Shown: positions 657 through 48,401 of the stretch, piece after piece
Numbering within the stretch: position 1 is the first letter of the stretch
How the letters are laid out: the number at the start of each line of letters is the position of its first letter
Assembly: GCA_013115125.1 (NCBI GenBank)
Contig: JABANN010000171.1
Location: 1 to 57,814 of the forward strand
Source of the DNA: Perkinsus olseni
Taxonomy: Eukaryota
Direction of reading: 5' to 3'
DNA: 57,814 bases
Notes under the pieces: generated by a model
Databases searched by the model: none
What the model was told of the DNA's origin: nothing
What the model saw: the letters and a program-made list of their open reading frames with translations, nothing else
Position numbers and translations under genes: made by a program

Positions 657-1503
657 GGGGGATCAATGCAACCTAATAGTGGCGGTGAGTCGAGTCGAAT
701 GATCTCAGACTGTGATTCACAATCCAGAAGCGTTGCGGCTATAGTGCTGCACGTGATGCCTGCTAAGCAGTGCCTGGCACTGAGGACCAGACCCTCTTCG
801 ATGTCCTCGCCGCTGAGGACACACACCCTTCGTGTGTGTATTGATATCCTCCACTGTTAGACGGGATACGGCTCATTCTCCCTGGAGCAGATTCTGTTAG
901 GCGGACACATAGCTGACCACGTATAGAATGGTTGACGGAATGATGAACCTTGAAATGTGATGCCCACGTGTGCCTGCGTACACATTCGCACGCAAGCACA
1001 AGGTATCGACAACACAGGCAGGACCTCTTTATCATGATGGGTCGACGAGCGCGATAAATGCTGAGTCACGGGCGCGCGCGTTTAGGGGCCCCGGAACTTC
1101 TCGGCGTCGCCGTCATCATCATCGCCTTTACAGATTACCAATGGTCATTAACCATCTCTAGCTTCATGCTCACGACTGCATACGTTCTATCACCAGTGTC
1201 TGAAACTCGGCTAACGGAATATCAGTTGGCGCATTTTAACGCCGGACCATGGTCGTGTTACGCGTGGTGTCCTTCGGAATTAGCATTGGCACGGCTCAAG
1301 TCGTCACAGAACTTCCCGGCGAATTCAGTTATTTATTTCAGTCAAGTCATTCCTGCTTCTCTAGTTGAGCCAAAGGCGAGGAAGGGGGGCAGGCATACTA
1401 CAGGTAAGCTAGAAACACGACCGGTACGTCCAGCGCTCCGCCTCGTTAGATCGGGCAGATCCCGAGGTCAGCGCTAGCCTAGTAAGCGCCCTTGGCCTGC
1501 ACC

Positions 1504-3858
1504 ATGACATCCATCACAGATCATCGGATCGCCATGGAGGAGAGGTAGTAATGGAGGGTCCCAGGGTGGAATTACGGATGGACATGCCAGGGAGCCTCTC
1601 TGTCGGACAAGATGAGCCTATGGCTCGGCAGCAAGTGCGAGACCTACTCCATTAGCGTATGCATGCTATGCCTCGGGCTCATGTACGCACTACCTTACGC
1701 CGTGTCTCGAGGTACGGAAGCTGTTCAGGTACTCGGTTCATAACTTGGTCGCTCCGAACATGACATCCATGGCCAAGATGTTCCATTTCAATGCCGTTGA
1801 ACGCGACGAGTAGGCTGCTAGGATACGCTGTACTGTCGTTAGCTGTCATGTAGGTACCTCGGTGGCGAGCTCACTTTGGTGTTCTACGCCCCTGGTATGT
1901 TCGTAGCCCTCCTAGTGGGCCTACTGTCTGCTGTTGTCCCGCGGAAAACACTGCTCACCGCAGTGGTCGCCCTCACAGCCCTGGCAACCATGACCACTTT
2001 TTTCGCCGGTAGATCGTCTTTAGCGTCCGCATGGCGAAGAGTACAATGTGTAGGTACATTTCGTTCCCTCCTGTGGGCTCGAGCCATAGCTGGACTGGGT
2101 ATTGGTGGTGCTTTGCCTGTCGCGTATTCCATGGTTGGCGACTGGTAATGATGCCCCATTTCTCTTCCTCCTCGTTGCTGCAGCATCCGCCCTCCAGGTT
2201 CCCTCCTGACCAGCGAGCGGTCGCGTCTGCAATGATCACCGCAGCCTGTGGGGGGGGCGTGTTCTTGGGGCAAGTAGCTGCAGCATACATAGGGAAGGTA
2301 GTCGTGGTGATGGTTGCCGGGTCCTTCCATATGTTTCTCAGACCATCGACTGGCGCTGGGCTTTCCTCTTGATTCCAATACCAGCCCTCGCAGGAGCGGT
2401 ACTCTGCCAGGTGGGGATCACTGGGTTTACGTGTGAGGTCACCAGGGCACCCCTTAGTGCACACTGATCGAGCCTGAAAGGGGAGCCATGGATGGAGCAG
2501 ACCCTGTTACTGCGGACGATGAGACTGTGGTCGGTGATTGGTACAGTCATTTACATGCTGATTACCTCGTGCAGACACTCATCAGCCGGGGGCCTGAGCC
2601 TTCAGAGTCTGCCGCTCTATCGACAGTCGACACGGAAGGCCCGGCTTTATCTTATAGAGGGGAGGGGCAGTCCAGCCGATCTGCATGGTTTGCTGATAAC
2701 GTGGAGCAACTCAAGCAGGCTTCCTATTCCCGTAACACGATGCCCGTCTTGTTGCCTCTCTCGAGCCCGCTCGATACCAGGTACGAATCTCCTGGTACTG
2801 CTGCAAGCCTTCCCCGGCGGCATACCATGGGGAATCATCATCGTTTACCTTCATGACTTCCTAGTACAAGTGAGTCGATGTTTCAAGCACTGCTACAGCG
2901 GAAGATGCCTTCCAGGACATGGGCTTCTCGATTGAGCTGGCACTTTTCGCCTCGGCCACGATGGGGCTCGCCGGATTCTGTGGGGTCCTCATCGGTGGAT
3001 TTATAGGCGAAAAGCTCTACCGAGCGGACCCGCGGTAGTACCGGGTTCGGGTAACCGCTGCACACGATCGTGGCAGATACTGTGCTTTGTTCTGCTCGGT
3101 CATGTCGTTGCTGAGGGTTATTCCTTTCTTCGCTGTCTTCGGGTGGACCTCCCTCTACAAGGAAGGGCCCAACGAGGTCGACCAGCTGGCAGCTGCAGCT
3201 GTGGGGAAGGCCATGGATGCGGTAGTTGGTCCTTTGCGAGCTCGTTCGCCGAGAGCTGTCTATTCAGGTTGGTGAAACACAAGCCCACATAGTATCCACA
3301 GAGATGTTGCATCTGTCCTTCTTCGGGACACTCTTCATCGGTGGAGTCATTGCTACCACCCCAGCAGCCAACCTAGGTGCCATTCTGTTGAATGTCAATC
3401 CGCCACAGCATCGAGGTGGTGCAGGGGTATGGTGCCAGATCCGTCTCACCTACGAGTGTCAGGTACGGTATTTGCAGTGTATAGCGTGCTTGATGACCTC
3501 TCCAAAGGCGTGGGAACGCTGTTCGTTTCGTTACTGGTAAGAGTAGCGGACCTGACGTTACCTCATGCTGGGACTCTTGTCTCCGCCAGATACCCTATAC
3601 AGGAGGTCGGGCAGTAGCGTACCAGTTCACTCTCGTTGTGTGGTTGGTGTGCGGCCTTCTCCTGATACCAGTGGTCAACAGCCTGCAAGAAGACGAGCTA
3701 TACATGCAACGGACTTTGCGGGAGCAGCAGCATAGGAAAAGGGTAGTCCGTTCAGCAACCTCTCCCATGACAGCCCATCTACTCCGTACAAGGTCAACGA
3801 CATGAGATCAGAAGCTAGCCACCGCATACTCTCCACAACAGCCAAGGCAGCATCGCTA
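1504..3858 (+). CDS. Major facilitator superfamily transporter (Spinster-like), multi-exon; ends approximate
   Basis: Spliced reading gives LCLGLMYSVHNLVAPNMTSMAKMFHFNAVERDEYLGGELTLVFYAPG, ARAIAGLGIGGALPVAYSMVGDW/FPPDQRAVASA, QAFPGGIPWGII, AILLNVNPPQHRG; short GT-AG introns between segments. Confidence 0.85.
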
Positions 3859-4178
3859 GTTTTGCATCGGAGACCGGCCAGTAGCCCTTCGTGACTCTAC
3901 GATTCCCAGGAGTGACATGTTATCAGAGAATGATGTCCGGTCTTTACATCACTGTCGTGTTTACCCGTCGTCCTCGTCAACTCTTGCTGGGGAATATATC
4001 GTCTTCGATTCGTGTCGTGAGTGAGGGCTGATCTTCGTCCGCTCCAGAGCTGACGCCGTCGCTGTTGTGCACAGCAATGCTTTTCGGGTTGGCCCGTGAG
4101 CATCATTGGTTGTGTGGCAGCTGTCTCCCTCGTGATACCAATGATCCGAACGCACCTGACCTTCAGTTTTTTTGGCAA

Positions 4179-6134
4179 ATGGGAGCGTGCACATCGTGCT
4201 TTGAAACACCTACAACTGCCGTGCCTCCGCCAGCAGCGCCACCAGTACAAGTCGTATACAATGTCCAGAAGGAGAATGAAGAGAGCCCGGATGTCACGGT
4301 CTATCACGACACTCTACAGCTGCCGGTCAGCCCGACTACGGTGATGGCTAGCCAGCCGTGTACGGTGACTACCGTGACAACTGAGACTGTGGAGTATCCA
4401 GGCCAGGTTGACGAGATTGTTGTGGAGGATTCTGATGGTGAAGACGTCCCCGATATTGAGGAGGTCTCTGTAGAATCCATCACCTCTGAGGGCGACCATG
4501 AGTCTAGCGGTGACGTTGAAATCACTAGTACGGCCTTCGAGCCCTCGGTTCTACCTGACGAGGTTGATGCTACTGTCGGTGATGATCATGACGGGCGTCC
4601 TGGTCATGATGATGAGGTTGCACCACTCAACAACCCCGTACCTGTCGAGCTCCTCCGCACTGCTGCGGCTTTGAAGGCTGATCAGAATGAGCCGGAACAG
4701 CCGCCACCGCCAACCGCTCATGCTCTGACCGCTGAAGGAGCCTCCTTCGCTCTAGCCGCTTGCTCTGGTATCTCGGCATCCTCTATTGGGAGCCCTGACG
4801 GGTCGGGGGAAGGGTCGCCGGCGGTACCCGCAGTCGCACAGACTATGATGAGTACGACGTCGGGCCTTCAACCCGGGGAGAGCGGTCCTGTGTATCAACC
4901 AGCGGCTTCAGAAGAGGCACCTGTGGCTCAGGGCACACTGGAGCCAGTAGATGCTGGTGTCCTTGGGCAACGCCCACTAGGTCTAGCGGAGGTGTCGGCG
5001 GAATTTGACATTGGTTTGGTACAGCAGCTTCCCCCTCAAACTGATATCGAGGAGGCCGAGGAGGTCACCACTGGTGAGGTTGCTGTTCAAGACGATGTAA
5101 CCGAAGAAACCACGGTTGTTGTTGACGAGGTCGTAGAGACTTCTTCTTCTGCTGCTCTCACTGAGAGGCATTTGCCTTACCTGTACGATACGCAGCCGAG
5201 CCCACCTACTGATAGGAAGTTTCCTTACCTCTACGATCATCCTCAGCTGGGTGCTGATCGAACCGACGGGGAAGCTGCCGTCTCCACTGCTTCGAGGCAG
5301 TTCCCTTACTTGTATGATCATCCCGTCGTTGAGGACAACACCACTGGCGCAGAGGCTTCCTCCGCTGTCACTACGAGGCAGTTCCCTTACTTGTATGATC
5401 ATCCCGTCGTTGAGGACAACACTTCTGACGCTGAGGCTTCGTCCGCTGTCACCTCGAGGAAGTTCCCGTATCTTTATGATCGCCCTCAGTTGCGGGGCGC
5501 TGTAGCTGGATCATCTGAGGGCTCCGCTTCGGCCGGTACTCGGAAATTCCCCTATCTATACGACTCCCCTCTTGGGGTCGCTCCCTTTGTGCAAGCACCT
5601 GTGACTAGCACTTCGACGGGCAGCGCGAATTGTGGTGAAGCAACAGGGAACGGCGATGAGAAGAAGGTGCAACGAGAGTCTATGCCGGCTGTCACAGCAT
5701 CAAAGTTCCCTTACATGTACGACAAGCACTCAATGGCGGATGCCGGGGTCATCAGCGGTTCGTCGTCATCCACAGCGGCTCTTCCAAGCAGCGGTACTGG
5801 TGGCGATAGTCGTGAGGCGGTCAGCGCTGGCCACGGTGAATCGACTGCTGCTACTACTGGCAATGGTCCGGTTGAGGGCAGGGCTTTTCCTTACTTGTAT
5901 GACAAGCATTCCGAGGCTTCCCGAGAAGGGTTTGGACAGCAGCCAACTGAGGGAAGCGCAACAGCAGGGTCCATCGAAGAGCATTCTACTGATAGGAGGT
6001 TCCCTTACCTATATACTGCAGCCAGTTCCGATGCGGGCTCCGGTAGTGTTGCCACCACTGCGACGACGGCAACTACCACGAAAACACAGGCCCCGAGGGT
6101 TACTGGGGTCACCAGTCCTGAGGTGCGAGAGTAG
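4179..6134 (+). CDS. Acidic low-complexity protein with MGAC-type dual acylation motif and 9 [FL]PY[LM]Y repeats
   Basis: Long uninterrupted ORF (4065-6134); ATG at 4179 gives MGACTSC; motif counted 9 times in the translation. Confidence 0.75.
   Translation: MGACTSCFETPTTAVPPPAAPPVQVVYNVQKENEESPDVTVYHDTLQLPVSPTTVMASQPCTVTTVTTETVEYPGQVDEIVVEDSDGEDVPDIEEVSVESITSEGDHESSGDVEITSTAFEPSVLPDEVDATVGDDHDGRPGHDDEVAPLNNPVPVELLRTAAALKADQNEPEQPPPPTAHALTAEGASFALAACSGISASSIGSPDGSGEGSPAVPAVAQTMMSTTSGLQPGESGPVYQPAASEEAPVAQGTLEPVDAGVLGQRPLGLAEVSAEFDIGLVQQLPPQTDIEEAEEVTTGEVAVQDDVTEETTVVVDEVVETSSSAALTERHLPYLYDTQPSPPTDRKFPYLYDHPQLGADRTDGEAAVSTASRQFPYLYDHPVVEDNTTGAEASSAVTTRQFPYLYDHPVVEDNTSDAEASSAVTSRKFPYLYDRPQLRGAVAGSSEGSASAGTRKFPYLYDSPLGVAPFVQAPVTSTSTGSANCGEATGNGDEKKVQRESMPAVTASKFPYMYDKHSMADAGVISGSSSSTAALPSSGTGGDSREAVSAGHGESTAATTGNGPVEGRAFPYLYDKHSEASREGFGQQPTEGSATAGSIEEHSTDRRFPYLYTAASSDAGSGSVATTATTATTTKTQAPRVTGVTSPEVRE
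5281..5470 (+). repeat. 81-bp coding tandem repeat (27-aa unit RQFPYLYDHPVVEDNTxxAEASSAVTx), about 2.3 copies
   Basis: CGAGGCAGTTCCCTTACTTGTATGATCATCCCGTCGTTGAGGACAACAC occurs at 5293 and 5374. Confidence 0.9.
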
Positions 6135-6456
6135 CTCAGGCTACGACCATATTTTAAGGCTGGACGCTAGCTACATTTCCATCAAACCAGATTTTTTCCT
6201 CAACACCCTATGTCTATTTTGGTGGAGCGCGGAAGCTCCATCATTGTATAATCATTAGTATATCTCGTCCACGAGTGAGTAGTACTTCTACTAGCAGTTT
6301 TTCGTTACAGATACTCTGAGTTTCATGAGACAAGTTGTTGCGTTTTCATTCCTGAGCCTTCTAGCGGACGGGATGTGTCTGAGGTATCTTCATCATAGTC
6401 ATGGCCTCCGCTACACTGATTCTCTTGTCAGACGTTGTTGACTTTTCCACGTCCCA

Positions 6457-6738
6457 ATGGGTTGCAACTCTTCTACTGTATCCGAGCCAGTGGCCGCTCC
6501 GGAGGCTTCTGAGCAGGTTGTTGCCACTGGATCGGAGGGTGGTCCAAAGGTTGAGAATGATGTCGCTATGGCGAGCAACGTCACTACCGGCAAACCGTCT
6601 GTTAGTAATGATGAGTTCCCCTACCTGTACGGCTCCATGCAGGATAAGATCTCCGGAGAGTCTAGTCAAGAAGCGACTTCTAAATCTTTCCCCTACATTT
6701 ACCCAGAGGCCTCTGGTAGCACGGAGCCTCAGAATTGA
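6457..6738 (+). CDS. Small protein with MGCNSS dual acylation motif and two FPY[LI]Y motifs
   Basis: 93-aa ORF; EFPYLYG and SFPYIYP share the motif of the upstream gene. Confidence 0.6.
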   Translation: MGCNSSTVSEPVAAPEASEQVVATGSEGGPKVENDVAMASNVTTGKPSVSNDEFPYLYGSMQDKISGESSQEATSKSFPYIYPEASGSTEPQN

Positions 6739-7184
6739 GGATTGTTTATCGAGGGCGTTTATGATGGGATAGGTAGACATTTTTGGTAGACACTTTTTCC
6801 CCGGTATATTAGAGTGGTTGTGGATGCCGCCCCTGCTGCCTGGGCGGTCACATAAGTCCCAGCAAGACGAGAAGTATAAGGCGTCTTTCCGGCGCACTGG
6901 GTACATTATTGTTGAACAGCAGAGACTCTCTGCCAGAGAGGATACTATATTTACGAAGCTGAGTGTTATGTTTCTAGTGAACAAAACCAGTCGTGTGGGA
7001 GCCATGTATCCTGCAAGCTAGTATGATCAGTGCAGTTCAAAGCCGTGCGATTATCGCACTGCGATATCGGCCTTGCTCTTCGACACTGGCGGTTAATTCC
7101 CTGAGAGCAGCGTCAAATGCTCTCGCGTAAAACGGCGACGGTGGGTAACGTTTGTTCGGAGATTTGTGGTTATTTCGATGATAC

Positions 7185-7450
7185 CAGCACTACAGGAGCG
7201 TGAGCTAATTTTCTGCTTGTCGAATGGCGAGGATCGCGTTCGACAGTCGAACTTCGACTATGTACTAGAAGACGCTCCTTGGCTCGCCGTGAAGGGAAGG
7301 TGCCAGTTTTACCGAGGACTGTTAGCGAGATGCACTTCCGTACTCTCTTAGGTGCCAACGGCCGCCGGTGACCGGCGGTAGGCGTGTCCTGTTTCGTAGC
7401 AGCTATCACGGCGAAAAGTGGAGTAGTGGAAGAAAATACCCTGATCTACT
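7185..7450 (+). pseudogene. Truncated, frameshifted copy of the 5' end of the gene starting at 10223
   Basis: Aligns to ~10184-10422 (MARIAFDYVLEDAPWLAVK vs MERIVYDDVLEDIPVLVVK; VSCFVAAITA shared); two 14-nt insertions; GCAAGG donor changed to GGAAGG. Confidence 0.8.
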
Positions 7451-8249
7451 TGCGATAAGGCTGTGATCAGCCGTATCATGCTTGGTACCATCAACGAACT
7501 TGCCTAGGACCCCTCAATAATAGTATTTTTATGATACTCCTCTCAACGGAATGGTTCCTATACAGGGTCAATCAGTCGGCATCTGTTGGGTCATCTGTGA
7601 TAGGTTGCCAGTACGGTCGCAGGAACTTAGCCTAACATTTGTAAGCGGGAAATAAGACCTGATACTCCACCCAGGACTTGACACTCAGGAAATTAGCGGG
7701 AAGTTAGGACCGGGACTGACACTCCACCCAAATCTGGATACTAGACAGTGGCAATGCCGCATTGCCTTAAAGGGATGTCCAGCCGTCGGCGCCTGAGGGA
7801 GCACTCCTGAGTCTGTAAGGGCAACCAATGGGACCTTAGTCATTGACGAGGTATCGTCAATGACATGGGGGAGTTGATCTTCGCAACTCAGGGTGGCCTA
7901 GCTGATGGGGAGCCAGCCTCAGGAAGTGGCTAGGAGCCACCGGACGATCGGACGCCTGATGGCTGATCGGACGCCATCACCCATGTCTCAGGACGCACAT
8001 CTATCTAAACTAGTAGTGAATCCTTCCATTGACCCGGCCTTTAAGGGTGTCCAGATCATCACCCCTGTCTCACTCCATCAAGTAATCAGATAGATCATCA
8101 GGAGCATATTTCTTTACCTCATGTGGGAGTCCCACATCGGTGATCAGCGGAGAACGGTGATATTGTCACACAGTGGGACAATATCACCGTTCTCCGCTAG
8201 GGTGACCCTAGCGAAGAACGGTGATATTGACCCTAGTAGGGTCATAACT

Positions 8250-8535
8250 CTAGGGGTCATGAACTCTAGGATCATACTTCACGAACCAGCCTTGATCCTT
8301 CCATGTCTGGATCTCAGCCTCGTAACCTTTGCGCTCTTCCACAGTCGACAACTTCGTATACTCTCCAACATCGGGAACAATCCTATCTGATGGTGACACA
8401 CCTCCTCTCCATTTCCATTGGAAGAACCAGGAACCACGAGACGGGTCGAAGCTCGACCGTCGAACTCAACGACGAAACCAGAGGGCGAACAGAACCAAAC
8501 CACCGTGACTACCTGTCCCTTCTTCCACGTTAACA
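8250..8535 (-). mobile_element. LTR-retrotransposon pol fragment (region leading into reverse transcriptase), decayed
   Basis: Removing the 14-nt scar gives FVVEFDPSRGSWFFQWKWRGGVSPSDRIVPDVGEYTKLSTVEERKGYEAEIQTWKDQGWFVKYDPRVH, resembling from memory the WxWxW...ExxxWxxxGW segment upstream of RT in a Ty3/gypsy-like group. Confidence 0.6.
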
Positions 8536-9129
8536 TGTCGTGCCAGTTGAGTCGATAAGAAGGGACTCTCAGAGCGCCCTTGTTGTCTCTGAGGGTTTTA
8601 GTCAAGTGGAAGAGGCAACGAGCGGAGTTATAATTTAACACTCAGATAGCATTCAAGTTTGGGTTTACGCTATCATCCCTCGACGAGGGATGAGCTCGGG
8701 CTCGGGTTTTGGGGTGGTGGTTTAATCCATTCACGGATTGCTCGGATCTCAGATCCGACAAGCTCGTTACAAGCAGATCCGGGATCTGCTTGTAACACAA
8801 ATATCTTTAGTTTTCTGCCTTTCTTACCTTGTGACTGTTGAGGTGCATCCAATGGAACGGCTGTGGTTCCTGAATGTTGAAGACTACCAGCCAACGAGCC
8901 GCCTCTCCAATCCTATTCAGTCAGGCTCTTTGGTTGGGGAACATTAAGCGGTTGGCTAGCCACACTCCGAACGGGTTGTGATTATCCAGCTTGGATAGTC
9001 CAGGAACTGAGATCAACAGGTGTATACACTTGATGCGGCTTGTTGGCATCCCTTAAGGATCTGAGTCCGGCCGCTGCAGTCGCTCCCGCCGTCGGAATGC
9101 TCAGTATCTGGGAGTCTGACAATCGAAGC

Positions 9130-9345
9130 TTGTTCTTGGTCGGTGGTCGTTGTTGGTAGTGTGTGGCTGGCCTCAAGGTCCTCTGCACATCAGCCTGATT
9201 AGCGGGTTTGGGAGTTCGGATGTACCAACAGAACACGCCGAACAACCCGAACACGACGTATTTGGGAGGACCTCGCGCCATGCTTCGAGAGCACCTTGAT
9301 GGGCGTCGTGAGCACAGAGGTTCACGATACTCTGAATTGTAGTCT
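9130..9345 (-). mobile_element. Possible decayed integrase H2C2 zinc-binding fragment
   Basis: IVNLCAHDAHQGAL, then after a frameshift SMAR...W...ADVQRTLRPATHYQQ, loosely matching H-x-AHQG...W...DV...CxxCQ. Confidence 0.3.
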
Positions 9346-10222
9346 CACGCATCATTGAGGCTGCCACCAACGTGTGACACGTTACGTGTCTGGGTCAACT
9401 AAGAGATGATGGTGCACGTCAAACCACTTTCCGTTGATGATGGCTCTTATCATGGGCTATCAGCGAAAAAGGAAGGGACGAGGGTATGCCTATATTGGCG
9501 ACTATATATTGAATGTACTCGCGGCACTCTCTCGACTAGGGTGCGTCTCCGACGCGCTCTGCGAGCCGTTGGGATAGGCTGATAACCCGTCCACGCTTTC
9601 CTCTAAGGTGCAATATATGAGATTCGAGCTGATCACTTTACTCGAACGCGACTACCTCAACGAACTCAATCACGCCCGTCAGCAAGCGCCTACTGATGGA
9701 AACCCCACTCTAGTTTGCTCCAGATCCTTCATTATCACGCCTGTTTCATTCTCGGAACGTTTCCGCTGAGCGGTATCCACTCTTTCTGAAACACGTAAGA
9801 CAGCATCTGTAACAGGGAATGTTTGCCACGTGCAGCGGTTTCAGCTGCCTTATCGAATCTCACCCCCCATCGAGAACAGCGACTTGCTTCTCGAAATCAG
9901 TCTAGTGAGAACCCGGTTGTCGCAATGTTGTTCTCAACATCGACAGAGTTATGGCCACTGTCTCTATGGCGGCCAGTGAGTCGTCTTTCCACTCCTCAAG
10001 GTCAGCGATTGGTTTCTCCAGTTGGCGTAGTGAAACGCAGGACCTGATATGCGGTCTCTGCACGGGTACGCTCACCTTCTGAGTTGACCTGGTCCATGAG
10101 TGTCTATATGGTGGTCAATGAGTCGACTCTCCCAAGTTGGGAGTCCCAACCTTGAGGTTTGTTGATTTGCTTTTTTATGACAGCAGCTCTGCAGAAGCGT
10201 GAGCTAATTTTCTGCTTATCGA

Positions 10223-12429
10223 ATGGAGAGGATCGTGTACGACGATGTATTAGAAGACATTCCTGTGCTCGTTGTAAAGGCAAGGTGCCAGCTTTGGAGA
10301 ACACTGCCAGTGGAAATGCACGGCCATACTTCCTCAGGTTCCACCAGGGCTAGGCGTGTCCTGTTTTGTAGCAGCTATCACTGCGGAAGGCGGGATAGTT
10401 GAAAATTTCACCCCTGCTGTACAGAATGTGCTCCGTGAAGTGGTATTAACATATATGCGCGGGGCTGACTGATGTGTTGTAGTCAGCTCGATAGCTGCTG
10501 CGATCACTATGGCCGGGTCGCCATCGATTTAGTGTTCAAAGTCATGAGCGCAGCTCGCAGGAAAGTTCGACAGAAGGTGAGAGCACTCTGGCCTTCTTCA
10601 TAGCAAAAACTTTGCGACTATCAACTACTGCTCATCCCACCGACTACTGGTGGCATGTACAACATCGGCCTCGCCGTTTGTGTTCAGGATCTTCAGTTAT
10701 GGGAAGACCTCTTCGGCGGCTCAACAGCGTGTATAGTGCAGACTACCTTCGAGCAGGGGTTGAGCCATTGGATGAGCGAGTTGGGCATCGACTTCATCGC
10801 TGCAAACGACATGATACGAGTACTTGCGTTATCTCCATATACCCGCTAGTCTCAAAGCTTCAGGCCCTGCTAGGAGTCATTGACCCCTATAGCACTGGCA
10901 TTATTCAGAGAGATGCTTTCGTTGAGTCCATGGGACTTTGCGGAGGTTCTGATCTTCTTTGTGCGGAGAATCTTCCTATCATTCTCTCCTGGGCCGCCGA
11001 GAGAGGGAAGAAAGCCGCAAATCTGCCGTCGTGTCCGGAGCGAAGTCGAGCTCGTTCTCTGTACGTTTCGCTTACACTTCCTTCGCGTCTGTTACACCCT
11101 CAGCTCCAGCATACCTCGCCCGATCCACGCACTCAAGTCGGAGTACCCGGTGGCTGTTGTTCAATCTGAGGTCAGCGAAGTCCCACCTTCCTCACCGGAT
11201 GAGGTTCTCGCGATAAGCTCTTCACGTTATTGCGATGCGACGGAGGAACTAGATTGTTCGCGGAGTTCGAGGTGGGCGTGCGTCCTCCAGGGGTCGTAGC
11301 GGCGATTCTCAACACCGCAGATGCAGGTCGGATCAGTCGCCCGCCGTTCATGCATCTCTCATCGCCCGAGCACTTCGGAGGCCGACGCAACGACGTCTAT
11401 GGTCATCGCTAGTGCGGCTCAGTAGTGGTCCTCGTCTGGATCGTGAGGATGCCGTGCGGGTTCGAGCGATTGTAGGGACTTCTTCCGCAGAGTGCAGCTT
11501 GCACGACGCACTCTTAGGCTAGCTTGCTACGTCTTAGTACCATAAGACGGATTGCATGGGGATTCTCACGTATGCAGACACAAGTGATGGGTCTCAATCT
11601 CGAGCCCCAGTGATAGAAATGAACGGCCAATCAGGTACACGGGGTTAACAGCTCGATCTTGTGCCCTCTGGGTGATCCACCTAGACGATCTTTCTCTTAC
11701 ACGCGATCGCATTTGGAAGTGGTGAGTCACCTTGCGGGGCTTGGTGTCCGTGAGACTAATGACCTTGCGTCAGGCAAGACAGGCGCGCGCACTCACTGCT
11801 GCGATGTTCGCCGCGGCAGCTGCAGTCCGTAGGTCGATCTCTGTCAGATATCAAGCGTTGGCAGACGCAGAGCGGATCTCACGAGCGAAACCGTCTCAAC
11901 GGAGTGTTTCCACGGAGGAGCCTGGTCCGATGTGGGCCTCAAAGCCATTGTGGTTGAATTTGTCTATTTCACTCCTAGGTACGACGTGCGCCCTGAGACG
12001 TCAGAGCACGTTATTGCCCTGCCTTACTCGCCGTTATCCGACCCACCTCGGCCAGGGAGCATTCGTCACGGCTCGATATTGGCCGCTTCGCGTAACCAAC
12101 GAGTTGCGGCGGAAGGACAGACCGACTTGCTAGATCCTCGCACGCCCAAGAAGCCCCATCTGAGGGTGGCCGAGGGAGTGAACACCCCGCGATCCAAGCG
12201 CCGTGATTCCTCCTGGATCGACTCTGCGCCATCTCCCTGCGCGGGGGATGCTGATAGTCCCCACCTTATGGTTTCGTCTGCTCGTGAGGATCACTCTTGT
12301 CTGCGGAGAGCAGGAGTGCTAGGTCCGTTTCCTTCAGGGAACTTCGAGCAGATCTTGGAGCCGCAGCAACAAACTTCAGTTAACAAATGGCGAAAGAAGC
12401 GTCCCAGCACGTTCCATATCTTTGCATGA
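10223..12429 (+). CDS. Hypothetical multi-exon protein, possible EF-hand-like loop
   Basis: Exon-like segments (e.g. LLGVIDPYSTGIIQRDAFVESM) linked by short introns; probable GC-AG first intron; 3' exons uncertain. Confidence 0.55.
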
Positions 12430-12845: not shown

Positions 12846-15640
12846 ATGGATTCACGCCATCGATTAAGTGGAATGGGAGGTAGGACAGACGTGAGGTCCA
12901 TCGCGTGTCCCGGGCAACTCGGAAGTCATCCGTGAGCTTGTCTCAGAAAGGGCAGGGTTCTTAGGGCACGACATTCTATGATATTGATGTTATCCTTTTT
13001 CAGGTCGAGACCGGGTAGCCTGGATTACTGCTGCATCGCCTTCTTCTGGTCGTGCGCTCTCACCCAGCTGATCTGTGGCATAGTCATAGCGAGCTCGACG
13101 AACTATACTCACCCTGTCGTTACAGATCCGGTAGGCGCTCTGTATGGGTCGTGAGTCACGTGTCGTTGTTCACTCATTGTCAACAAGCTCCTCAGTATGC
13201 ACTAGGCTACACGTTGGGCTAGCAATGGATCGTCGGCCGCGATGGTGCTCTCCTCAACCTCAACTTCGCCGAGCCGTGTATAGAGTTGAGGGATTCTATT
13301 CAGAGGACTGATAGCGATGTTCTGAAGTTTCGGTTCAGAACATCTTGTGGATCTTCTTCGACTGAGAGCGCCAGCGTGGGCTAGTTCTCGGGCAACGCCG
13401 TGGCAGTAGAGTTCATCTAATTTTATATCTCCATCATTCGTTGTCACGCTAGTTTGTCCATGAGGAATATTATACCGGTTGAACTTCGCTCGCTGAGGAG
13501 ATTCCTGCAGAGCGTCAGGTGGCAGTGAGACGAAAATAACGAAGGCTTGTGAAATATAGGCCTTTCTCTGGATTTTTCGAAGCTGAACACCTTCCGTGTT
13601 GTCGGGGTTGACCATGTTTCAGCATCTGTAATGTGCCCATTTTTCTTCTCAGAGCCAGCTTTGTCCGAGCAATTACAATTTCGCCCTTGCCGACTGTGTC
13701 AGCGAGGGCGCAACCTCACTGCATCCGAGGTAGGGCACCTCCGCAGGGATGCTCCACTCTGTCGAAGGCTGCTGTCGTTCTTTCTTGTGTGGAACTATCT
13801 GAGCGTACTGCTTGAGATCTGATTATCGGTCATACTTGTCTTGGTGCGCTCCATCTCTCTTGCTCAGTCTGCTCGCTTGTGTTGACGCTGGGCTGTGCGA
13901 CTCCATACGTGCCTGCTATCAAGGGGCTGCAACACCATCCACTATGAATGGGTCGAGGATACTGCAAGCCCCGGATGCCGGGGTGAGTTTCCTTCGTTCT
14001 CACTGGCTACTGCCTGAGAGATCCTTCCTTCTACGCAGGTAGCTGCAGACCTGTGGGAGGCTCTCGCGGACTACTGGTACATCCCCACTACTATTTTCCC
14101 CAGTATGGTGCTTGTTGCTGTACTTTGGCTGTTGGCCTCGGAGTACATCCCTAGGGTTCTGATTTGGTCTACACTAGCAACTTCCATAGTATTCCTCATC
14201 GCCCTATGGGCTTTCTGGTGAGCTCCGTGTCACAACCTTCTCGCTCTGAGGTCATTTGTTCGTAGGAACTTCGAGTATGGTTTCAACAACTGGATGCTGC
14301 TCGTCATCGCCGGCCTGGCCACGGTCTCTAGTGCAATTCTTTATAAGTCGATAAATTGTGCGGCGGAAGTCCTGTCGGTCGCAGCCTGTGGGTTACGATG
14401 CACCCCATCGGTCGTGCTGGCAAGTCTGCTTTTGAAGGGAATCTTCGTTGCCTACGTATTACTCTGGACTTTCTTCATGGTGCGATCGGCGCAAACTAAG
14501 GAGCTTGACGAGAGTAATTGCTCTCTGCGCTCGTCCCCAGGGATCGGCTTCGCACGGTTCCTATTCGGTCTTCTCTTTTGGGTATTCACCTACGTATTCC
14601 TTAACATGAAAACGGTGGTCTGTGCTGCGGGTATTGGTGCTTGGTATTTCCCTGGTGGTGATGGAGAGCCGACCATACCAGCACTGAGGGGCCTTCAATG
14701 GGCTTTTACGACCAGCTCTGGGGCTGTCATGTTCGCTGCCACTATCGTGGGTGTCACTAGATTCATTCTGAACCGTATCGGTAACGCATGCCACTGCCTT
14801 CCTTGGTTCTTGACACCGCTTGGCTGTCTATGGAAGTGTCTCACTTGCTGCTGTATGAGCATTCTCGAGGCATTCTCGAAATTTATGATTATCGGCCAAG
14901 TATTCGCCGGCGGAAGCTTCTGTGGCGCTGGACGGAAATCCTTCCGTCTCATAAAGAACCGCCTCGGAAACGCGTTCATCACCGACGGTGTTGGCCATAC
15001 CGTCGTGACTACGGCGACCTATCTTTTCTCCTTCTCTCTGGGCGTGGCATCCTGGCTGTGGCTCGATGCAGCTCAGGAATATCAGACGCTAGCTGAGCTC
15101 AACACCTTCTTATTGATACCCGTACTTCTACTCTTCGCAGCCTTCATTTCTACACCCATTTTCACCATCGTAGTGGTCACCTGGTTGTCGCCTCTGCTGC
15201 ATGGTTTAACATGTGGGGAGGATGGCTGTGACTCTAGCTCCCAGGCCAACGCTCAGAGAGCAATCAACTCTGTTACGGGTGCTCTATTCGTTGGTTCGGT
15301 ATGCTTCGCTTTCTTCCACTTTCTCGCCGATGTAGTCCTATGTTCGATCGACACTGTGTTTTTCTGTTTTGCCATCGAGGCCGATGCTCGGTCGTATCAG
15401 CATAGGCTGGAGGGTCCAGTGTACTCAAAGTTCACGGAGAGCTTAGATCTGAGCGCGTCCTTTAATGACGGCCCAGCTGCGTCACATTGTCAGTCAACTC
15501 CATGCACTTCCTGTGAAGACTCGCACGTTGTCTCGCCGGGATCCACTCCCGTGCAGAGTGGCAGCGACATACCTTCTCCAGCCGACCAAGCCTTGTTCGG
15601 CTACACTGCAGCGGTGCCCGCTCACACTGGCGGTCAATAA
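12846..15640 (+). CDS. Choline transporter-like (SLC44/CTL family) protein, paralog 1
   Basis: Multi-TM ORF 14294-15640 with AGIGAWYF, AFTTSSGAVMFAA, GGSFCGAGRKSF, IDTVFFCFAIE; upstream exons match paralog 2; intron 2 about 13131-13867. Confidence 0.85.
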
Positions 15641-18132: not shown

Positions 18133-20681
18133 ATGGCTTCGCACCGGGGGTTAAATGGCGGAACAGGTAGTGCTTCGGTGCCGAGGGAGGCTTTTGCATA
18201 CGTTAATAGAGGCCTCAACCGCGAGAGTCCTGGTCTCTCCTTCGCACAGCATCGTGATAATGGTGTTACACCAGCGCTCTGGGCTCTTTCAGGTCAGCAC
18301 TCGGTCCGCTCGACTGGATATGTATTGCTCTGTTCTGGGTGTGCATCCTAGCGCAGTTGATAGCGGGATTCGTCATCATTGCATCCCGCAACTATGCCTT
18401 CCCTTATGTGGAAAGCCAAGGGGTGAGTACGCCTAGTTACCTCTATATGTGCACCGGCGAGCTTCGCGGCCATATTCCTCTTTTCGGCCCATCCCACGGT
18501 ACTGTTGGCTAGCTTACGCGTCAACCTGGGCGGCAGCATTGCTTGGGGACTGAAGGCTGAGGTTGGAGTTCGTGTTGTCAGTCCAACGCAGTCTGTCCAT
18601 CCGGATTCGTACTTGCGGCGGAGAAGTGCAAGCTTCAGGGTTCCCGCGTGAACCCATTCGATCCCAAGTAGCGACCCCGCCAGGAAAGTGGTGTTGAACC
18701 TTATCTTTCAGTGCGCTGGGCTGTGTGGATTCTAAGCTATGTGATGACTTGCTGCGGTGTCACGCAAGTTTGAGAGATTCTTCTCTACCTTTTGCCTTCT
18801 TGCAGGCCGAGACAGGCGGCGAGAAGGTGAGCCAATGTGTCGACGTAGGAGTCGTTTTGATATACCTAGTGTCGCCTCAGGCCGCGAACAACCTCTGGGA
18901 AGCTTTCGGAGACTACTGGTACATCCCGACCGTGATATTTCCATCAATGGTGGTACTTGGGGTCCTCTGGCTGCTTGCTATGCAGTACCTGGTGAAGCCA
19001 TTGGTATGGACAACCATTACGGCAGGCGTAGCCTTCCTGATCGGCATGTGGGCATACTGGTAGTAATTGGGAACTCTATTAGGAAAGGTTTTTTCCACTT
19101 TCCGCCTATCCTTGATGCATGGGCTCGCCCGGTAGTGCGTGGTCACTACACTCGTGAGGGGTTTCCTCGGAAGAGCCTTACTCATCAGGTACTTCGTGCA
19201 TGAAGTCAACAATTGGATGCTTTTGGTGGGAGCAGGGATAATCGTCCTAGCCTGCATATTCCTCTTCGGGTCCATCAACCGTGCCTGTAAGGTGATATCG
19301 GTAGCGGCCTACGGGCTCAGGAAGACGCCATGGGTCATCATCACTAGCTTGATGGTGAAGGTCATTTATGTGCTTTATGTGGTTCTTTGGACCATCTTTA
19401 TGATACGTAGTGCGCAAGCGAAGTCTGTGAAAATGTCAAACTGCACGCTAGAGGACGAGAAGTGGATACAAGTTGCCCGTATTATCTACGGTCTTCTCTT
19501 CTGGATATTCACCTACGTATTCCTTAACGTGAAAACGGTTGTCTGTGCTGCGGGTATCGGTGCTTGGTATTTCCCTGGTGGTGATGGAGAGCCGACCATA
19601 CCAGCACTGAGGGGCCTTCAATGGGCCTTTACGACCAGCTCTGGGGCTGTCATGTTCGCTGCCACTATCGTTGGCATCACTAGATTCATAATCAATCGAA
19701 TCAACAGCGCATGTGGCTGCCTGCCGTGGTACCTGTCCCCCATATCGTGTATTTTCCAGTGCTTCGCCAGCTGTTGCCTCGGCGTTCTCGAGATGTTCTC
19801 CAAGTTCATGTTGATAGGCCAGGTAAGGTGATCTGCATGCCCCCTCCATGTCGATAGCTTCACTGCACAGGTTTTCTCTGGAAAAGGTTTGTGCGGAGCT
19901 GGGCGGAAATCATTCGATCTCGTCAAGGACCGCCTGGGTACGGCCTTCATCACTGACGGCGTTGGACATTCTATGGTGAATACCATCATCGGCTAACGTC
20001 ATGATAGGGCACCTTGTTGTTCAGTTGTCGATCTGTACCTATGTCTTCTCCCTTGGTATAGGGATAGCTGCATGGGTATGGCTGGATGAGGCACAGAACT
20101 ACCAGACCCTCACCGAGCTTGGCTGGTATCTCCTAATACCAGTACTGCTGCTCTTCGCAGCCTTCATATCGTGGCCAGTCCTCACCATTGTCCTCATATC
20201 CTGGCTGGCCCCGACCTTTCATGTTTGGGCGTGTGGTAGAGACGGCTGCAATACGGTTAATGAAGTTCATGCCCAGCTGGCCATCAACTCAGTCACAGGC
20301 GCGCTCTTCATCGGCTCCGTCTGCTACTCCTTCTTCCACTTCTTGGCTGATGTCATGCTGTCATGTATCGATACTGTTTTCTTCTGCTTCGCGATCGAAG
20401 CCGACGCTGATGTCTATCAAGGCCGCTTTGAACACTCAGTTTATATGGTCCTCAAAGAGGATATGACCGACGGTCGTGAGGCGCCCATTTATAAGGGAAA
20501 CGCTCGACCTTTAGAAGAATACGAAATGGCGCCTGTAGGAGGCGCGACTCAGCAATCTGCAACAGTCCCGGCTTACTCGCCGGAGTTCACTCACGGTGGA
20601 AGGGCGGATCCGACTGCGCAAGCCACTATTGGTTACCAAGGACCTGTGCGTCCTGGCGGGGACAGGATATCCTACGTGTAG
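18133..20681 (+). CDS. Choline transporter-like (SLC44/CTL family) protein, paralog 2
   Basis: Same motifs as paralog 1; extra introns at about 19823-19870 and 19976-20024. Confidence 0.85.
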
Positions 20682-41893: not shown

Positions 41894-42491
41894 AGCCCAC
41901 AGAGGCGCTTTTCTTGTCGTTTCCAATGCGGCCAGTGAATTCGACACCGCTCGGCTCGGGTTGCTTCTTTCTGCAGTAGAGAGCATCACGTCTTCTCTGC
42001 TCCTCTTTTAAGGACTGTCATCGTTCTACGGTCGCCGCAGTTGTACTTTTCGTCAGGTGGCTGTCGTGGTATCGGAAGACAAGTGGGACACAGGCCTCTG
42101 AGATTCATGGGGGCTACAACGATTATCGGACTCGTCAAACTACACTGTATAAAATATCATCTCGGCGGGCTTTGTGGCTTGCGTATCAGGGAAGGTCTGT
42201 TCGCCGCTCGATACAGACTCGCCCTTTCAGTCTTCCATGAAGGATCAATTCTTTCCATGCCTCCTCGTCATCCCTGAAGGGCCTCGTGTCAGCAGCCCCC
42301 ATCTTGAGGAGAGTGCCAAGCTGAAGCCCCCTGTTGATCGTTATTAAAGCCGGAGAGTTTGTGCTAGTGGTCAATTCGCCTGCCGGGGTGCTTCTTTGGT
42401 CCATAGGAATCGAGATGAATTGCCGTCTGTTATACAAGGTAGTACTGGACTAGGGCGTTATCTTAGCGGCTTCTTTTCGAGCCTCCCTCTG

Positions 42492-43499
42492 ATGTCACCG
42501 CCTGGCTCTCCGATGTCGGTTGTGATGGGCTCACCTTTATTAGAAGCCACATACTCACGCTTCCGGGATGGAGACGAAATCATGGAGCGTTCCATCAGCG
42601 GAGGCAAAAGGCTGCGTGGCTTCTTCGAGGCTGAGGCGAGACCAGCGAAAATGGTAAGAAGACTTGGACTCGAGGAGGAGAGAGCGGCGAGGAAAAGAAA
42701 GCGGACTGATGGGGATAGTAGGGGCCCGGTATTGTCTCCGATGGTCAGGAGGCGCCTGGGTTCGCCCATGGGGAAGAGGAGCGCCGCTGGTGGTGATGAT
42801 AACGAGTCATCGAGGAAACACAGGCGCGTGGACCTCGGCCTGATGGAGAATGATGGTCCGAGTCGCAGTGGTGATCATGGGAAGCGGCAAGGAGTGAAGT
42901 CGCCGTTGATGGTGGAGTTGGAGAGGATAGAGAGGTTGCCTAGGTCGGCTACTCCAATGCAAGTACTCGGCCTACCGAGACTACCGAGTAATGTTGGGGA
43001 GGTGAAGAAGAAGCTCCGAGCACTTAGTAAAGTAGTGCACCCCGATAAGACCGCCAATGAGAAGCATCTGAGGGGTAGGGCTGGGGCTGCCTTCCAACGG
43101 ATAAACTCCGCAGCACAGGAGGCTATAAAACTCCTTGAAGAGGCCACCACAGCCCCACCGGGAAGAGTTCAAGAGTTGACTTATCGAATGGAAGGGGAGG
43201 TATTGGTGGTCCAATGGCGGCCACCGGCTGATGTCAATAAGAGGACGGTGAGCTCTTATCGAGTGGTTGCCTCTGCCCCCGGTACCGCTCCAATCGAGCA
43301 AGGTGTTGTTAATGCCCAAGGATCTACTACTGATGATGGCTGGGTGGAATGTGCTATATCCTCCCAAGGGCGGAGGGGTAATGATACCCTATTCTTAAGA
43401 CAACAGTTTCAAGTAACGGTTAATGCAACCAATCCCAGTGGTCATGGACCCGCTGCCCTACTGCATGTATCCCTCAATCCAAGGCCGCCCCGTATGTGA
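42492..43499 (+). CDS. J-domain protein with FN3-like C-terminus, intronless, paralog 1
   Basis: QVLGL...VKKKLRALSKVVHPDK...AFQRINSA; APPGRV...VVQWRPP...SYRV...FQVTVNATNPSGHG. Confidence 0.85.
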   Translation: MSPPGSPMSVVMGSPLLEATYSRFRDGDEIMERSISGGKRLRGFFEAEARPAKMVRRLGLEEERAARKRKRTDGDSRGPVLSPMVRRRLGSPMGKRSAAGGDDNESSRKHRRVDLGLMENDGPSRSGDHGKRQGVKSPLMVELERIERLPRSATPMQVLGLPRLPSNVGEVKKKLRALSKVVHPDKTANEKHLRGRAGAAFQRINSAAQEAIKLLEEATTAPPGRVQELTYRMEGEVLVVQWRPPADVNKRTVSSYRVVASAPGTAPIEQGVVNAQGSTTDDGWVECAISSQGRRGNDTLFLRQQFQVTVNATNPSGHGPAALLHVSLNPRPPRM

Positions 43500-48372: not shown

Positions 48373-48401
48373 CTGCTTTCTGTCGTTTTCCCCCTCTTCT
48401 C

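What the first reader, a model, noticed from the sequence alone, without database searches (positions are those of the whole stretch)
7185..7450. Internal control: pseudogene copy differs from its intact paralog by two exact +14 nt scars
The intact copy reads GATCGTGTACGAC-GATGTATTAGAAGAC (10231-10258). The pseudogene reads GATCGCGTTCGAC[AGTCGAACTTCGAC]TATGTACTAGAAGAC. In exon 2, GTTCCA-CCAGGGC-TAGGCGTGTCC corresponds to GTGCCA[ACGGCCGCCGGTGA]CCGGCGG-TAGGCGTGTCC. Both insertions are 14 nt and frameshifting, so the motifs are acquired insertions at a formerly single 8-mer rather than ancestral hairpins.
Basis: seen in the sequence. Interest (0 to 1): 0.75.

Follow-up and report, generated by a model that had tools for sequence, protein, structure and literature searches.

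The report
Transposon excision scars in Perkinsus
The two 14-base insertions that break one gene copy are real and look like the scars a cut-and-paste (hAT-type) transposon leaves when it jumps out; about a dozen such scars crowd one 3-kb stretch of this shellfish-parasite contig.

Summary
Copy A (7178-7431) and copy B (10177-10403) align at about 79% identity, apart from two 14-nt gaps.

Each insertion turns an 8-mer X into a 22-mer: X(1-7) + reverse complement of X (8 nt) + X(2-8). These lie at 7238-7259 (perfect) and 7356-7377 (one mismatch).

The window holds 5 perfect 22-mers of this form, against 0 in 40 shuffles. Only unit length 8 with a 1-nt offset gives hits. A model-based scan finds 11 two-sided scars, 10 of them in 6.9-10.2 kb and none beyond 10.2 kb. 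Odd palindromes are in excess (24 against 4.1 expected); even ones are not (3 against 3.7).

This is the published signature of hAT (Ac/Ds-type) excision: an 8-bp target-site duplication plus palindromic nucleotides centred on the complement of the base that abutted the element (PMC5873905). The compact 22-mer is what I derive if both unfolded flank hairpins anneal across the 8 nt.

The contig is Perkinsus olseni. No transposase or resident element is in the window. Orthologous DNA could not be compared. I file it as a new member of a known kind, of moderate interest.

The parts
7238..7259 (.). Scar 1 of the finding: compact 22-mer footprint, X = GTTCGACT, net +14 nt, in exon 1 of copy A
   Evidence: Perfect X(1-7)+rc(X)+X(2-8). 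Copy B has a single 8-mer here.
7356..7377 (.). Scar 2 of the finding: compact 22-mer footprint, X = CACCGGCG, one mismatch in the left copy, net +14 nt, in exon 2 of copy A
   Evidence: Copy B has a single 8-mer here.
7178..7431 (+). Copy A: truncated 5' duplicate (exon 1, intron, first part of exon 2) of the copy-B gene. It is frameshifted by both scars and has no counterpart of the downstream exon.
   Evidence: GT..AG intron ends are conserved.
10177..10439 (+). Copy B: exon 1 (10177-10284), intron (10285-10337) and exon 2 (10338-10439) of a hypothetical-protein gene. The model continues downstream (about 10.48-10.58 kb).
   Evidence: P0010, 'hypothetical protein FOZ63_013683, partial [Perkinsus olseni]', matches the exon-2 translation at 94% identity over 35 residues.
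10129..10150 (.). Compact footprint, X = CTCCCAAC, 27 nt upstream of the copy-B start codon
   Evidence: Perfect 22-mer.
6919..6940 (.). Compact footprint, X = GCAGAGAG
   Evidence: Perfect 22-mer.
7045..7066 (.). Compact footprint, X = GTGCGATA
   Evidence: Perfect 22-mer.
9369..9390 (.). Compact footprint, X = AACGTGTC
   Evidence: Perfect 22-mer.
8444..8465 (.). Compact footprint, X = GGTCGAAC, two mismatches in the inverted middle copy (older)
1134..1155 (.). Compact footprint, X about ATTACCAT, two mismatches (older)
8122..8179 (.). Long footprint, X = TGTGGGAC, net +50 nt. The left palindromic tract is 9 nt and the right tract about 27 nt (copying the right flank in inverse). An 8-nt filler repeats 7 nt of the right tract.
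   Evidence: (pair I2). Decomposition is by reading the sequence.
8197..8243 (.). Long footprint, X = CTAGGGTC, net +39 nt. The left tract copies about 26 nt of the left flank in inverse and the right tract is 8-9 nt.
   Evidence: (pair I1).
8743..8788 (.). Long footprint, X = CGGATCTG, net +38 nt. The left tract is 9 nt, the filler 7 nt and the right tract 16 nt.
7744..7765 (.). Probable degraded compact footprint (2 mismatches). It contains the odd palindrome 7750-7766.
702..789 (.). Two probable degraded compact footprints (702-723 and 768-789, 2 mismatches each)
   Evidence: 11 hits with up to 2 mismatches against 0.125 expected.
8673..8693 (.). One-sided odd palindrome (10-nt arms, 1-nt centre) without a recognisable second copy of the 8-mer. 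Possibly a footprint in which one duplication copy was lost.
   Evidence: This is inference only.

Best explanation
The two 14-nt blocks, and at least nine further structures in 1.1-10.2 kb, are excision footprints of a cut-and-paste DNA transposon. The element makes 8-bp target-site duplications and leaves hairpin-capped flanks, which makes it most likely a hAT-superfamily element.

Sequence of events:
1. The element inserts and duplicates an 8-mer X. (Inferred.)
2. On excision, each flank strand is nicked 1 nt inside the flank and joined to the opposite strand. Each flank then ends in a hairpin whose tip base is the complement of the duplication base that touched the element. (Inferred from the published hAT model. 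The odd 1-nt-centred palindromes are shown.)
3. The host opens or unfolds both hairpins at least 8 nt from the tip. The two 3' tails then share the 8-nt reverse complement of X, anneal there, and are trimmed and filled. This gives exactly L-X(1-7)-rc(X)-X(2-8)-R, a net gain of 14 nt. (My derivation. The product is shown 8 times.)
4. When the joint does not use that microhomology, longer inverted copies of the flanks and short templated fillers remain, giving net gains of 38-50 nt. (Shown 3 times.)

In copy A, two such events hit the coding part of a young partial gene duplicate and frameshifted it. The clustering of 10 events in 3.3 kb would fit repeated short-range hops of one element, a habit I recall for Ac/Ds, in DNA where scars are tolerated.
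For: - Architecture and statistics: 5 perfect and 1 near-perfect 22-mers against 0 and 0.025 expected.
- Only unit length 8 with a 1-nt trim gives hits. Lengths 5-11 with trims 0, 1 and 2 were tested; every other combination was at or near its shuffle expectation (the largest gap: length 5, trim 2, 23 against 15.7).
- A scan for the general model finds 7 perfect cases, against 0 in each of 20 shuffles. The model is X(1-7), a centre equal to the complement of X8, any filler up to 120 nt, a centre equal to the complement of X1, then X(2-8).
- The relaxed scan finds 11 cases, against 0 in 29 and 1 in 1 of 30 shuffles.
- Odd palindromes with arms of at least 7 nt number 24 against a mean of 4.1 (maximum 8), and 18 of them lie in 6.0-10.2 kb. 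Even palindromes number 3 against 3.7.
- The scars share no common sequence. All inserted bases are inverse or direct copies of the local flanks (by reading).
- Literature, passages read:
[quoted passage not shown] Arms reach 20 nt and microhomology is frequent in yeast (PMC5873905).
  - hAT, MULE, Transib and RAG form hairpins on the flanking DNA (PMC5499845).
  - hAT makes 8-bp duplications (PMC10368747; PMC4423477 Table 1; PMC3706591).
Against: - No transposase domain (BED, DDE, hAT dimerisation) appears in any stop-to-stop ORF of the window. ORFs of at least 90 aa were scanned for 1-13.6 kb and of at least 105 aa for 13-57.8 kb.
- No element with inverted ends and an 8-bp duplication lies near the scars.
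- The Hermes-type target preference nTnnnnAn is only weakly visible: T at position 2 in 5 of 11 and A at position 7 in 5 of 11. This is my count.
- A density of 10 scars in 3.3 kb with none in the other 47.6 kb is unusual and is explained only by inference.
- No filled site or empty-site polymorphism was seen.
- The 1-nt offset of the first nick (Hermes) is recalled, not read here.
- Other superfamilies with 8-bp duplications and unknown chemistry are not excluded.
Confidence: 0.75

Rival explanations
1. The scars are footprints of a different flank-hairpin transposon with an 8-bp duplication (for example a Mutator-like element), or of a domesticated transposase acting repeatedly at this locus. 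The chemistry is the same but the enzyme family differs.
For: Muta1 makes 8-9-bp duplications and forms hairpins on the flanking DNA (PMC5499845). No hAT gene was found in the window.
Against: More than 90% of Muta1 excisions in yeast were precise (PMC5499845). Mutator duplications are typically 9 bp (PMC4423477 Table 1), and unit length 9 gave 0 hits. Palindromes centred on the complement of the adjacent base are documented for Ac/Ds.
Confidence: 0.1
2. The structures arose without a transposon, by template switching or fold-back synthesis during replication or break repair (quasi-palindrome formation, snap-back synthesis in alternative end joining).
For: Such processes create inverted copies of adjacent sequence. 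The 8-nt filler at 8138-8145 repeats 7 nt of a nearby tract, which looks like templated synthesis.
Against: These processes have no reason to give a fixed 8-nt unit with a 1-nt offset at both junctions in 5 of 5 perfect cases. They also do not explain why the long forms keep the same 8-bp direct repeat with complemented centre bases. Even palindromes are not enriched.
Confidence: 0.07
3. The long form is ancestral, and copy B lost 14 nt twice by slippage between the 7-nt direct repeats.
For: The direct repeats X(1-7)...X(2-8) would favour a precise 14-nt deletion, and selection on an intact copy B would favour it too.
Against: This needs two gains plus two precise losses. If the scars predated a duplication that is now about 21% diverged, about 4-5 substitutions would be expected in the 44 scar bases. 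One is seen (my estimate, Poisson P about 0.06). The other-isolate allele of copy B is also short. The 22-mer form recurs at unrelated non-duplicated sites.
Confidence: 0.03
4. The 22-mers are an assembly or library artefact.
For: Reads were not available. All the structures sit in one lower-GC stretch (0.506-0.508 against 0.51-0.63 in the other 2-kb bins).
Against: Degraded copies with 1-2 substitutions lie beside perfect ones, which suggests real age structure. The form is specific to unit length 8. I know of no artefact that triplicates 8-mers with complemented junction bases (recalled knowledge).
Confidence: 0.03
5. The hairpins are functional: protein-binding or regulatory palindromes, or tiny hairpin-guided non-canonical introns removed from RNA, as in Amoebophrya introner elements.
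For: Amoebophrya non-canonical introns carry 8-20-nt inverted repeats and 3-5-nt direct repeats at the boundaries (PMC7789003). Apart from the two insertions, the aligned copy-A codons contain no stop.
Against: The scars share no sequence and belong to no repeat family. Fourteen nt is far below any known intron. Most scars lie outside any gene model. No Rfam family matched.
Confidence: 0.02

Closest known systems
Ac/Ds (hAT) excision footprints in plants, S. cerevisiae and Candida albicans
   Same: The 8-bp duplication is retained. Palindromic P-nucleotides are centred on the complement of the base that touched the element. Microhomology is used at the joint, and arms reach 20 nt in yeast (PMC5873905, passages).
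   Different: Here 8 of 11 scars are one deterministic product in which the whole 8-mer is inverted between the two copies. The experimental series described in that paper are heterogeneous (28 footprint types in 128 Candida revertants, arms of at most 3 nt). These are natural, fixed scars in a perkinsid, with no element seen.
P nucleotides at V(D)J coding joints and Transib/RAG-type hairpin ends
   Same: The flank is sealed as a hairpin, and off-centre opening gives inverted copies of the flank (PMC5499845).
   Different: As I recall, RAG and Transib nick at the boundary (even palindromes) and Transib makes 5-bp duplications. Here the palindromes are odd and the unit is 8. Even palindromes are 3 against 3.7 expected, and unit length 5 gives 1 against 0.9.
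Mutator-like element Muta1
   Same: Hairpin on the flanking DNA and 8-9-bp duplications (PMC5499845).
   Different: Muta1 excision is mostly precise. No footprints of this palindromic type are reported in the passages read.
Introner elements / hairpin non-canonical introns of Amoebophrya (a relative of Perkinsus)
   Same: Short inverted repeats plus flanking direct repeats inserted in genes of a related alveolate (PMC7789003).
   Different: Those are repeated element families that are spliced from RNA. The structures here are 14-50-nt unique sequences templated by their own flanks.
Dada transposons of Perkinsus marinus
   Same: DNA transposons documented in the genus (PMC3706591).
   Different: They make 6-7-bp duplications and target tRNA genes. 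This does not fit the 8-bp unit or the varied targets here.

Membership tests
hAT-superfamily excision footprint | Two copies of an 8-bp target-site duplication flank the scar | tested here: met
   11 two-sided cases with 8-mer copies. Only unit length 8 gives hits among lengths 5-11. The 8-bp criterion comes from PMC10368747, PMC4423477 and PMC3706591.
hAT-superfamily excision footprint | [quoted passage not shown] | tested here: met
   Both centre bases are the complements of X8 and X1 in all cases found. Odd palindromes are 24 against 4.1 expected and even ones 3 against 3.7. The criterion is from PMC5873905.
hAT-superfamily excision footprint | No constant element-derived sequence is left behind; inserted bases derive from the flanks | tested here: met
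   By reading the 11 scars: there is no shared motif, and the inserted tracts are inverse or direct copies of local sequence, apart from 7-8-nt fillers that are partly templated.
hAT-superfamily excision footprint | A hAT transposase or non-autonomous hAT element is present in the genome | tested here: inconclusive
   None in the 57.8-kb window (Pfam; TIR plus duplication scans).
hAT-superfamily excision footprint | Target preference nTnnnnAn (Hermes) | tested here: inconclusive
   T at position 2 in 5 of 11 and A at position 7 in 5 of 11 (counted). This is about twice the base frequency but P is about 0.1 each (my estimate). The criterion is from PMC10368747.
hAT-superfamily excision footprint | Filled, empty and scarred alleles of the same site in other isolates or haplotypes | not testable with these tools
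   No DNA of other Perkinsus assemblies was reachable. Only one protein of another isolate was found, and it is the copy-B allele.
Transib/RAG-type footprint | 5-bp duplication and even palindromes (nick at the boundary; recalled) | tested here: not met
   Unit length 5 gives 1 against 0.9 expected. Even palindromes are 3 against 3.7.
Mutator-like footprint | Duplication of 9 bp or more (8-9 in Muta1); excision mostly precise | tested here: inconclusive
   Unit lengths 9-11 give 0 hits. Eight bp lies at the edge of the Muta1 range (PMC5499845).
Introner / hairpin non-canonical intron (Amoebophrya type) | Member of a repeated element family, removed from the transcript | tested here: not met
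   No repeat family: each scar has a unique sequence. Removal from RNA is not testable here.

The most novel reading that the evidence does not exclude
Perkinsus olseni carries a recently very active hAT-like element (or a host-kept transposase) that visited this 3-kb stretch at least ten times. The parasite would repair the hairpin-capped excision breaks almost deterministically (8 of 11) by unfolding both hairpins and annealing across the 8-nt duplication. That would mean little near-tip hairpin opening or classical end joining. The 22-mer 'X, inverted X, X' would then be a countable genome-wide fossil of transposition. It would also be a distinct mutational process that seeds hairpins and +14 frameshifts and helps to kill young gene duplicates.
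Probability: 0.2. Interest if true: 0.65.

Novelty: new member of a known kind. Interest (0 to 1): 0.45.

Why it matters
The finding gives the window's 'hairpin motifs' an ordinary mechanistic explanation. They are most likely mutational scars, not functional elements.

It offers a simple, highly specific sequence signature (X(1-7)+rc(X)+X(2-8), unit 8). That signature could be counted across Perkinsus and other alveolate genomes to measure past DNA-transposon activity, and to read out how these parasites repair hairpin-capped breaks.

It also shows one concrete route by which a young paralog fragment was frameshifted. My three library searches for this topic in Perkinsus returned no paper on such footprints in the genus. 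The library lacks most subscription journals.

Tried and rejected
- **My first gene model was wrong.** I started it at ATG 10223 with an intron at 10274-10337, so the codon-position count used the wrong frame for exon 1. The FOZ63 protein shows the frame starting at 10177, and redid the count.
- **Pfam on the exon-2 peptide and on all long ORFs of 1-13.6 kb.** There was no informative hit for the paralog.
- **Rfam and tRNA scans.** Nothing found, so the conserved 255-bp block is not a known RNA.
- **Homologue searches for the paralog.**
  - The word-based search with the 44-aa exon found no candidate.
  - The exhaustive representative search gave 2 hits. One is the other-isolate allele P0010. 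The other is an unrelated 1770-aa repeat protein, P0011 (E = 3.3e-4, 43% identity), which I did not pursue.
  - The search with P0010 found only itself.
  - Longer and shorter length classes were not searched.
- **Search for a resident element** (8-bp direct repeat plus inverted ends).
  - One exact candidate lies at 54996-57198, with 12 of 14 matching end bases. It sits inside exons of a coiled-coil gene and is probably chance; my estimate is about 0.02-0.3 expected.
  - A second, weaker candidate lies at 43955-49010.
- **Literature.**
  - The search for Ascobolus footprints found 0 papers.
  - Lazarow 2012, Yu 2004, Huefner 2011 and Coen 1986 were seen only as citations in PMC5873905.
  - Zhou 2004 (Hermes hairpin, 1-nt offset), Colot 1998 (Ascot-1) and the P. 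olseni genome paper are recalled only.
  - No supplementary files were consulted.
  - The listing of cluster members could not be run.
  - Genome contigs holds only bacteria and archaea and was not used.
  - DNA of other Perkinsus assemblies therefore stayed unchecked.

Full report
**Observation**

A MAFFT alignment of 7100-7520 with 10100-10500 shows one homologous block. BLASTN places it at 7178-7431 against 10177-10403 and finds no other duplicated block when 6.0-10.2 kb is compared with the whole window.

Within the block there are exactly two gaps of 14 columns, both extra sequence in the 7.2-kb copy (copy A). Outside the gaps, 182 of 231 aligned bases are identical.

**Anatomy of the two insertions**

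Read with their flanks, both insertions have the same form. An 8-mer X present once in copy B is represented in copy A by 22 nt: X(1-7), then the full reverse complement of X, then X(2-8).
- At 7238-7259, X = GTTCGACT and the form is perfect.
- At 7356-7377, X = CACCGGCG and there is one mismatch.

Each 22-mer is two overlapping odd palindromes with 7-nt arms. Their single centre bases are the complements of X8 and X1.

**Is it more than chance?**

- A scan of the whole window for this 22-mer form finds 5 perfect cases (6919, 7045, 7238, 9369, 10129). It finds 6 with up to one mismatch and 11 with up to two. Forty first-order Markov shuffles gave means of 0, 0.025 and 0.125.
- I varied the unit length from 5 to 11 and the junction trim from 0 to 2. 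Only length 8 with a 1-nt trim gives hits (5 against 0). All other combinations are at or near their shuffle expectation; the largest departure is length 5 with trim 2 (23 against 15.7).
- A scan for the general model looks for X(1-7), a centre complementary to X8, any filler up to 120 nt, a centre complementary to X1, then X(2-8). It finds 7 perfect cases, against 0 in each of 20 shuffles.
- With relaxed matching the general scan finds 11 cases, against 0 in 29 and 1 in 1 of 30 shuffles.
- Eight of the 11 are the compact 22-mer (net +14 nt).
- Three are long forms (8122-8179, 8197-8243, 8743-8788; net +50, +39 and +38 nt). In these the inverted tracts run on into inverse copies of the left or right flank (arms up to 26-29 nt) and are joined through short fillers.
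- Ten of the 11 lie in 6.9-10.2 kb, one lies at 1.1 kb, and none lies in 10.2-57.8 kb.
- Odd palindromes with arms of at least 7 nt number 24 against 4.1 expected (maximum 8 in 30 shuffles), and 18 of them lie in 6.0-10.2 kb. Even palindromes number 3 against 3.7.

**What the surroundings are**

The window is a eukaryotic contig. ORF 14294-15640 is 100% identical to 'hypothetical protein FOZ61_002408 [Perkinsus olseni]', recorded on a contig of 57,814 nt. Pfam finds choline-transporter-like, PX, citrate synthase, RRM, DnaJ, WD40 and C2H2 domains, but no transposase domain in any long ORF. Rfam and tRNA scans are empty.

Copy B corresponds to an automatic gene model. The exhaustive representative search with the exon-2 peptide returned a 100-aa protein (P0010, 94% identity over 35 residues). 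It was later named 'hypothetical protein FOZ63_013683, partial [Perkinsus olseni]'. Its sequence defines exon 1 at 10177-10284, an intron at 10285-10337, exon 2 at 10338-10439 and a further exon downstream.

In that frame, the differences between copies A and B fall 8, 6 and 17 on codon positions 1, 2 and 3. Codon changes are 14 synonymous and 14 non-synonymous, and no aligned copy-A codon is a stop. The family is therefore, or was, coding. The bias could come from the copy-B lineage alone.

Copy A has only the first 255 bp or so of the gene. It is a gene fragment that the two scars additionally frameshift. No relative outside P. olseni was found (other length classes were not searched).

**Polarity**

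Four points favour gain in copy A over loss in copy B.
1. The same rigid form occurs at unrelated, non-duplicated sites.
2. The two scars carry 0 and 1 mismatch in 44 nt, although the duplicate around them is about 21% diverged. If they were as old as the duplication I would expect about 4-5 changes (my estimate, Poisson P about 0.06).
3. All three copies of each 8-mer in copy A share the same two differences from copy B's 8-mer.
4. The copy-B allele of another isolate is also short.

**Mechanism**

The signature matches what is published for hAT elements.
[quoted passage not shown] They are explained by hairpin formation on the flanks. In yeast, palindrome arms reach 20 nt and microhomology is frequent at the joints.
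- PMC5499845 states that hAT, Mutator-like, Transib and RAG reactions form the hairpin on the flanking DNA.
- Eight-bp duplications are the hAT hallmark.

I derive the compact product as follows.
1. If the first nick lies 1 nt inside the flank, the unfolded left flank reads L-X(1-7)-rc(X)-rc(L). The 1-nt offset is recalled for Hermes and was not read here.
2. The unfolded right flank, in top-strand sense, reads rc(R)-rc(X)-X(2-8)-R.
3. The only sequence the two share is the 8-nt rc(X).
4. Annealing there, with trimming of the non-matching tails, gives L-X(1-7)-rc(X)-X(2-8)-R. This is exactly the 22-mer.

This explains why one product recurs. It suggests that in this organism the hairpins are opened far from the tip and joined by microhomology. 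That last point is inference.

The three long forms are joints that did not use this microhomology. In 8122-8179 the 8-nt filler repeats 7 nt of the adjacent inverted tract, which looks like templated repair synthesis.

**What is not shown**

- No element or transposase is in the window.
- The nTnnnnAn target preference is weak: 5 of 11 at each key position, counted.
- The clustering is explained only by analogy with the short-range reinsertion I recall for Ac/Ds.
- A Mutator-like element or a domesticated transposase with the same chemistry remains possible.

**Rivals**

- Transposon-independent template switching does not predict a fixed 8-nt unit with complemented junction bases.
- An ancestral long form needs two precise losses and conflicts with the near-perfection of the scars.
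- An assembly artefact cannot be excluded without reads, but degraded and perfect scars coexist.
- A functional or RNA-removed hairpin, as in the Amoebophrya introners (PMC7789003), is unlikely. The scars share no sequence and are only 14 nt.

**Comparison and novelty**

This is a known kind of feature, the transposon excision footprint of the hairpin type, in an organism where I found no published description. Library searches returned nothing on it. PMC3706591 documents only Dada elements with 6-7-bp duplications in P. marinus. PMC8062965 mentions transposable-element-dependent integration in P. marinus.

The unusual aspects are the dominance of one deterministic product and the density of ten events in 3.3 kb. 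I rate it a new member of a known kind, with moderate interest.

Noticed in passing
window 4032-6131 (+), repeats at 5158-6013: A 700-codon open frame without any Pfam match contains 81-nt tandem units (5290-5370 and 5371-5451, 93% identical) and five copies of a 28-nt motif. It is probably a repeat-bearing orphan protein.
   Followed up: no
window 14222-15637 (+) and 19136-19828 (+): Two choline-transporter-like genes lie 5 kb apart in the same orientation. P. chesapeaki also has two on one contig (FOL47_010631 and FOL47_010637), suggesting a conserved tandem pair.
   Followed up: partly
window 42348-43496 (+) and 45559-47370 (+): Two neighbouring ORFs each carry a weak DnaJ domain match at the same profile positions (E about 2e-5, just below the Pfam cut-off). 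They are possibly a tandem duplicate.
   Followed up: no
window 27908-28273 (-): There is a short, sub-threshold match to the PIF1-like helicase family (E = 1.3e-4, 32 residues). It could be a fragment of a helicase gene or of a Helitron-type element.
   Followed up: no
window 54988-57206: An exact 8-bp direct repeat (AACTCAAG) brackets 2203 bp whose ends are inverted repeats in 12 of 14 positions. The ends lie in what read as exons of a coiled-coil gene, so this is probably chance rather than a resident element.
   Followed up: partly
window 7839-7864 and 8673-8693: Two further strong palindromes (11-nt arms with a 4-nt loop; 10-nt arms with a 1-nt centre) do not fit the two-sided footprint model. 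They may be footprints that lost one duplication copy, or something else.
   Followed up: partly
window 6001-10000: The scar-rich stretch has the lowest GC of the contig (0.506-0.508 against 0.51-0.63 in the other 2-kb bins), and no ORF of at least 90 codons there had a Pfam match with E of 1 or better. It looks like a gene-poor island between an MFS-like gene region (1.8-3.8 kb) and the choline-transporter genes.
   Followed up: partly
window 1843-2145 (+): A fragmentary Major Facilitator Superfamily match (E = 3.3e-5) suggests an intron-split transporter gene at about 1.8-3.8 kb.
   Followed up: no
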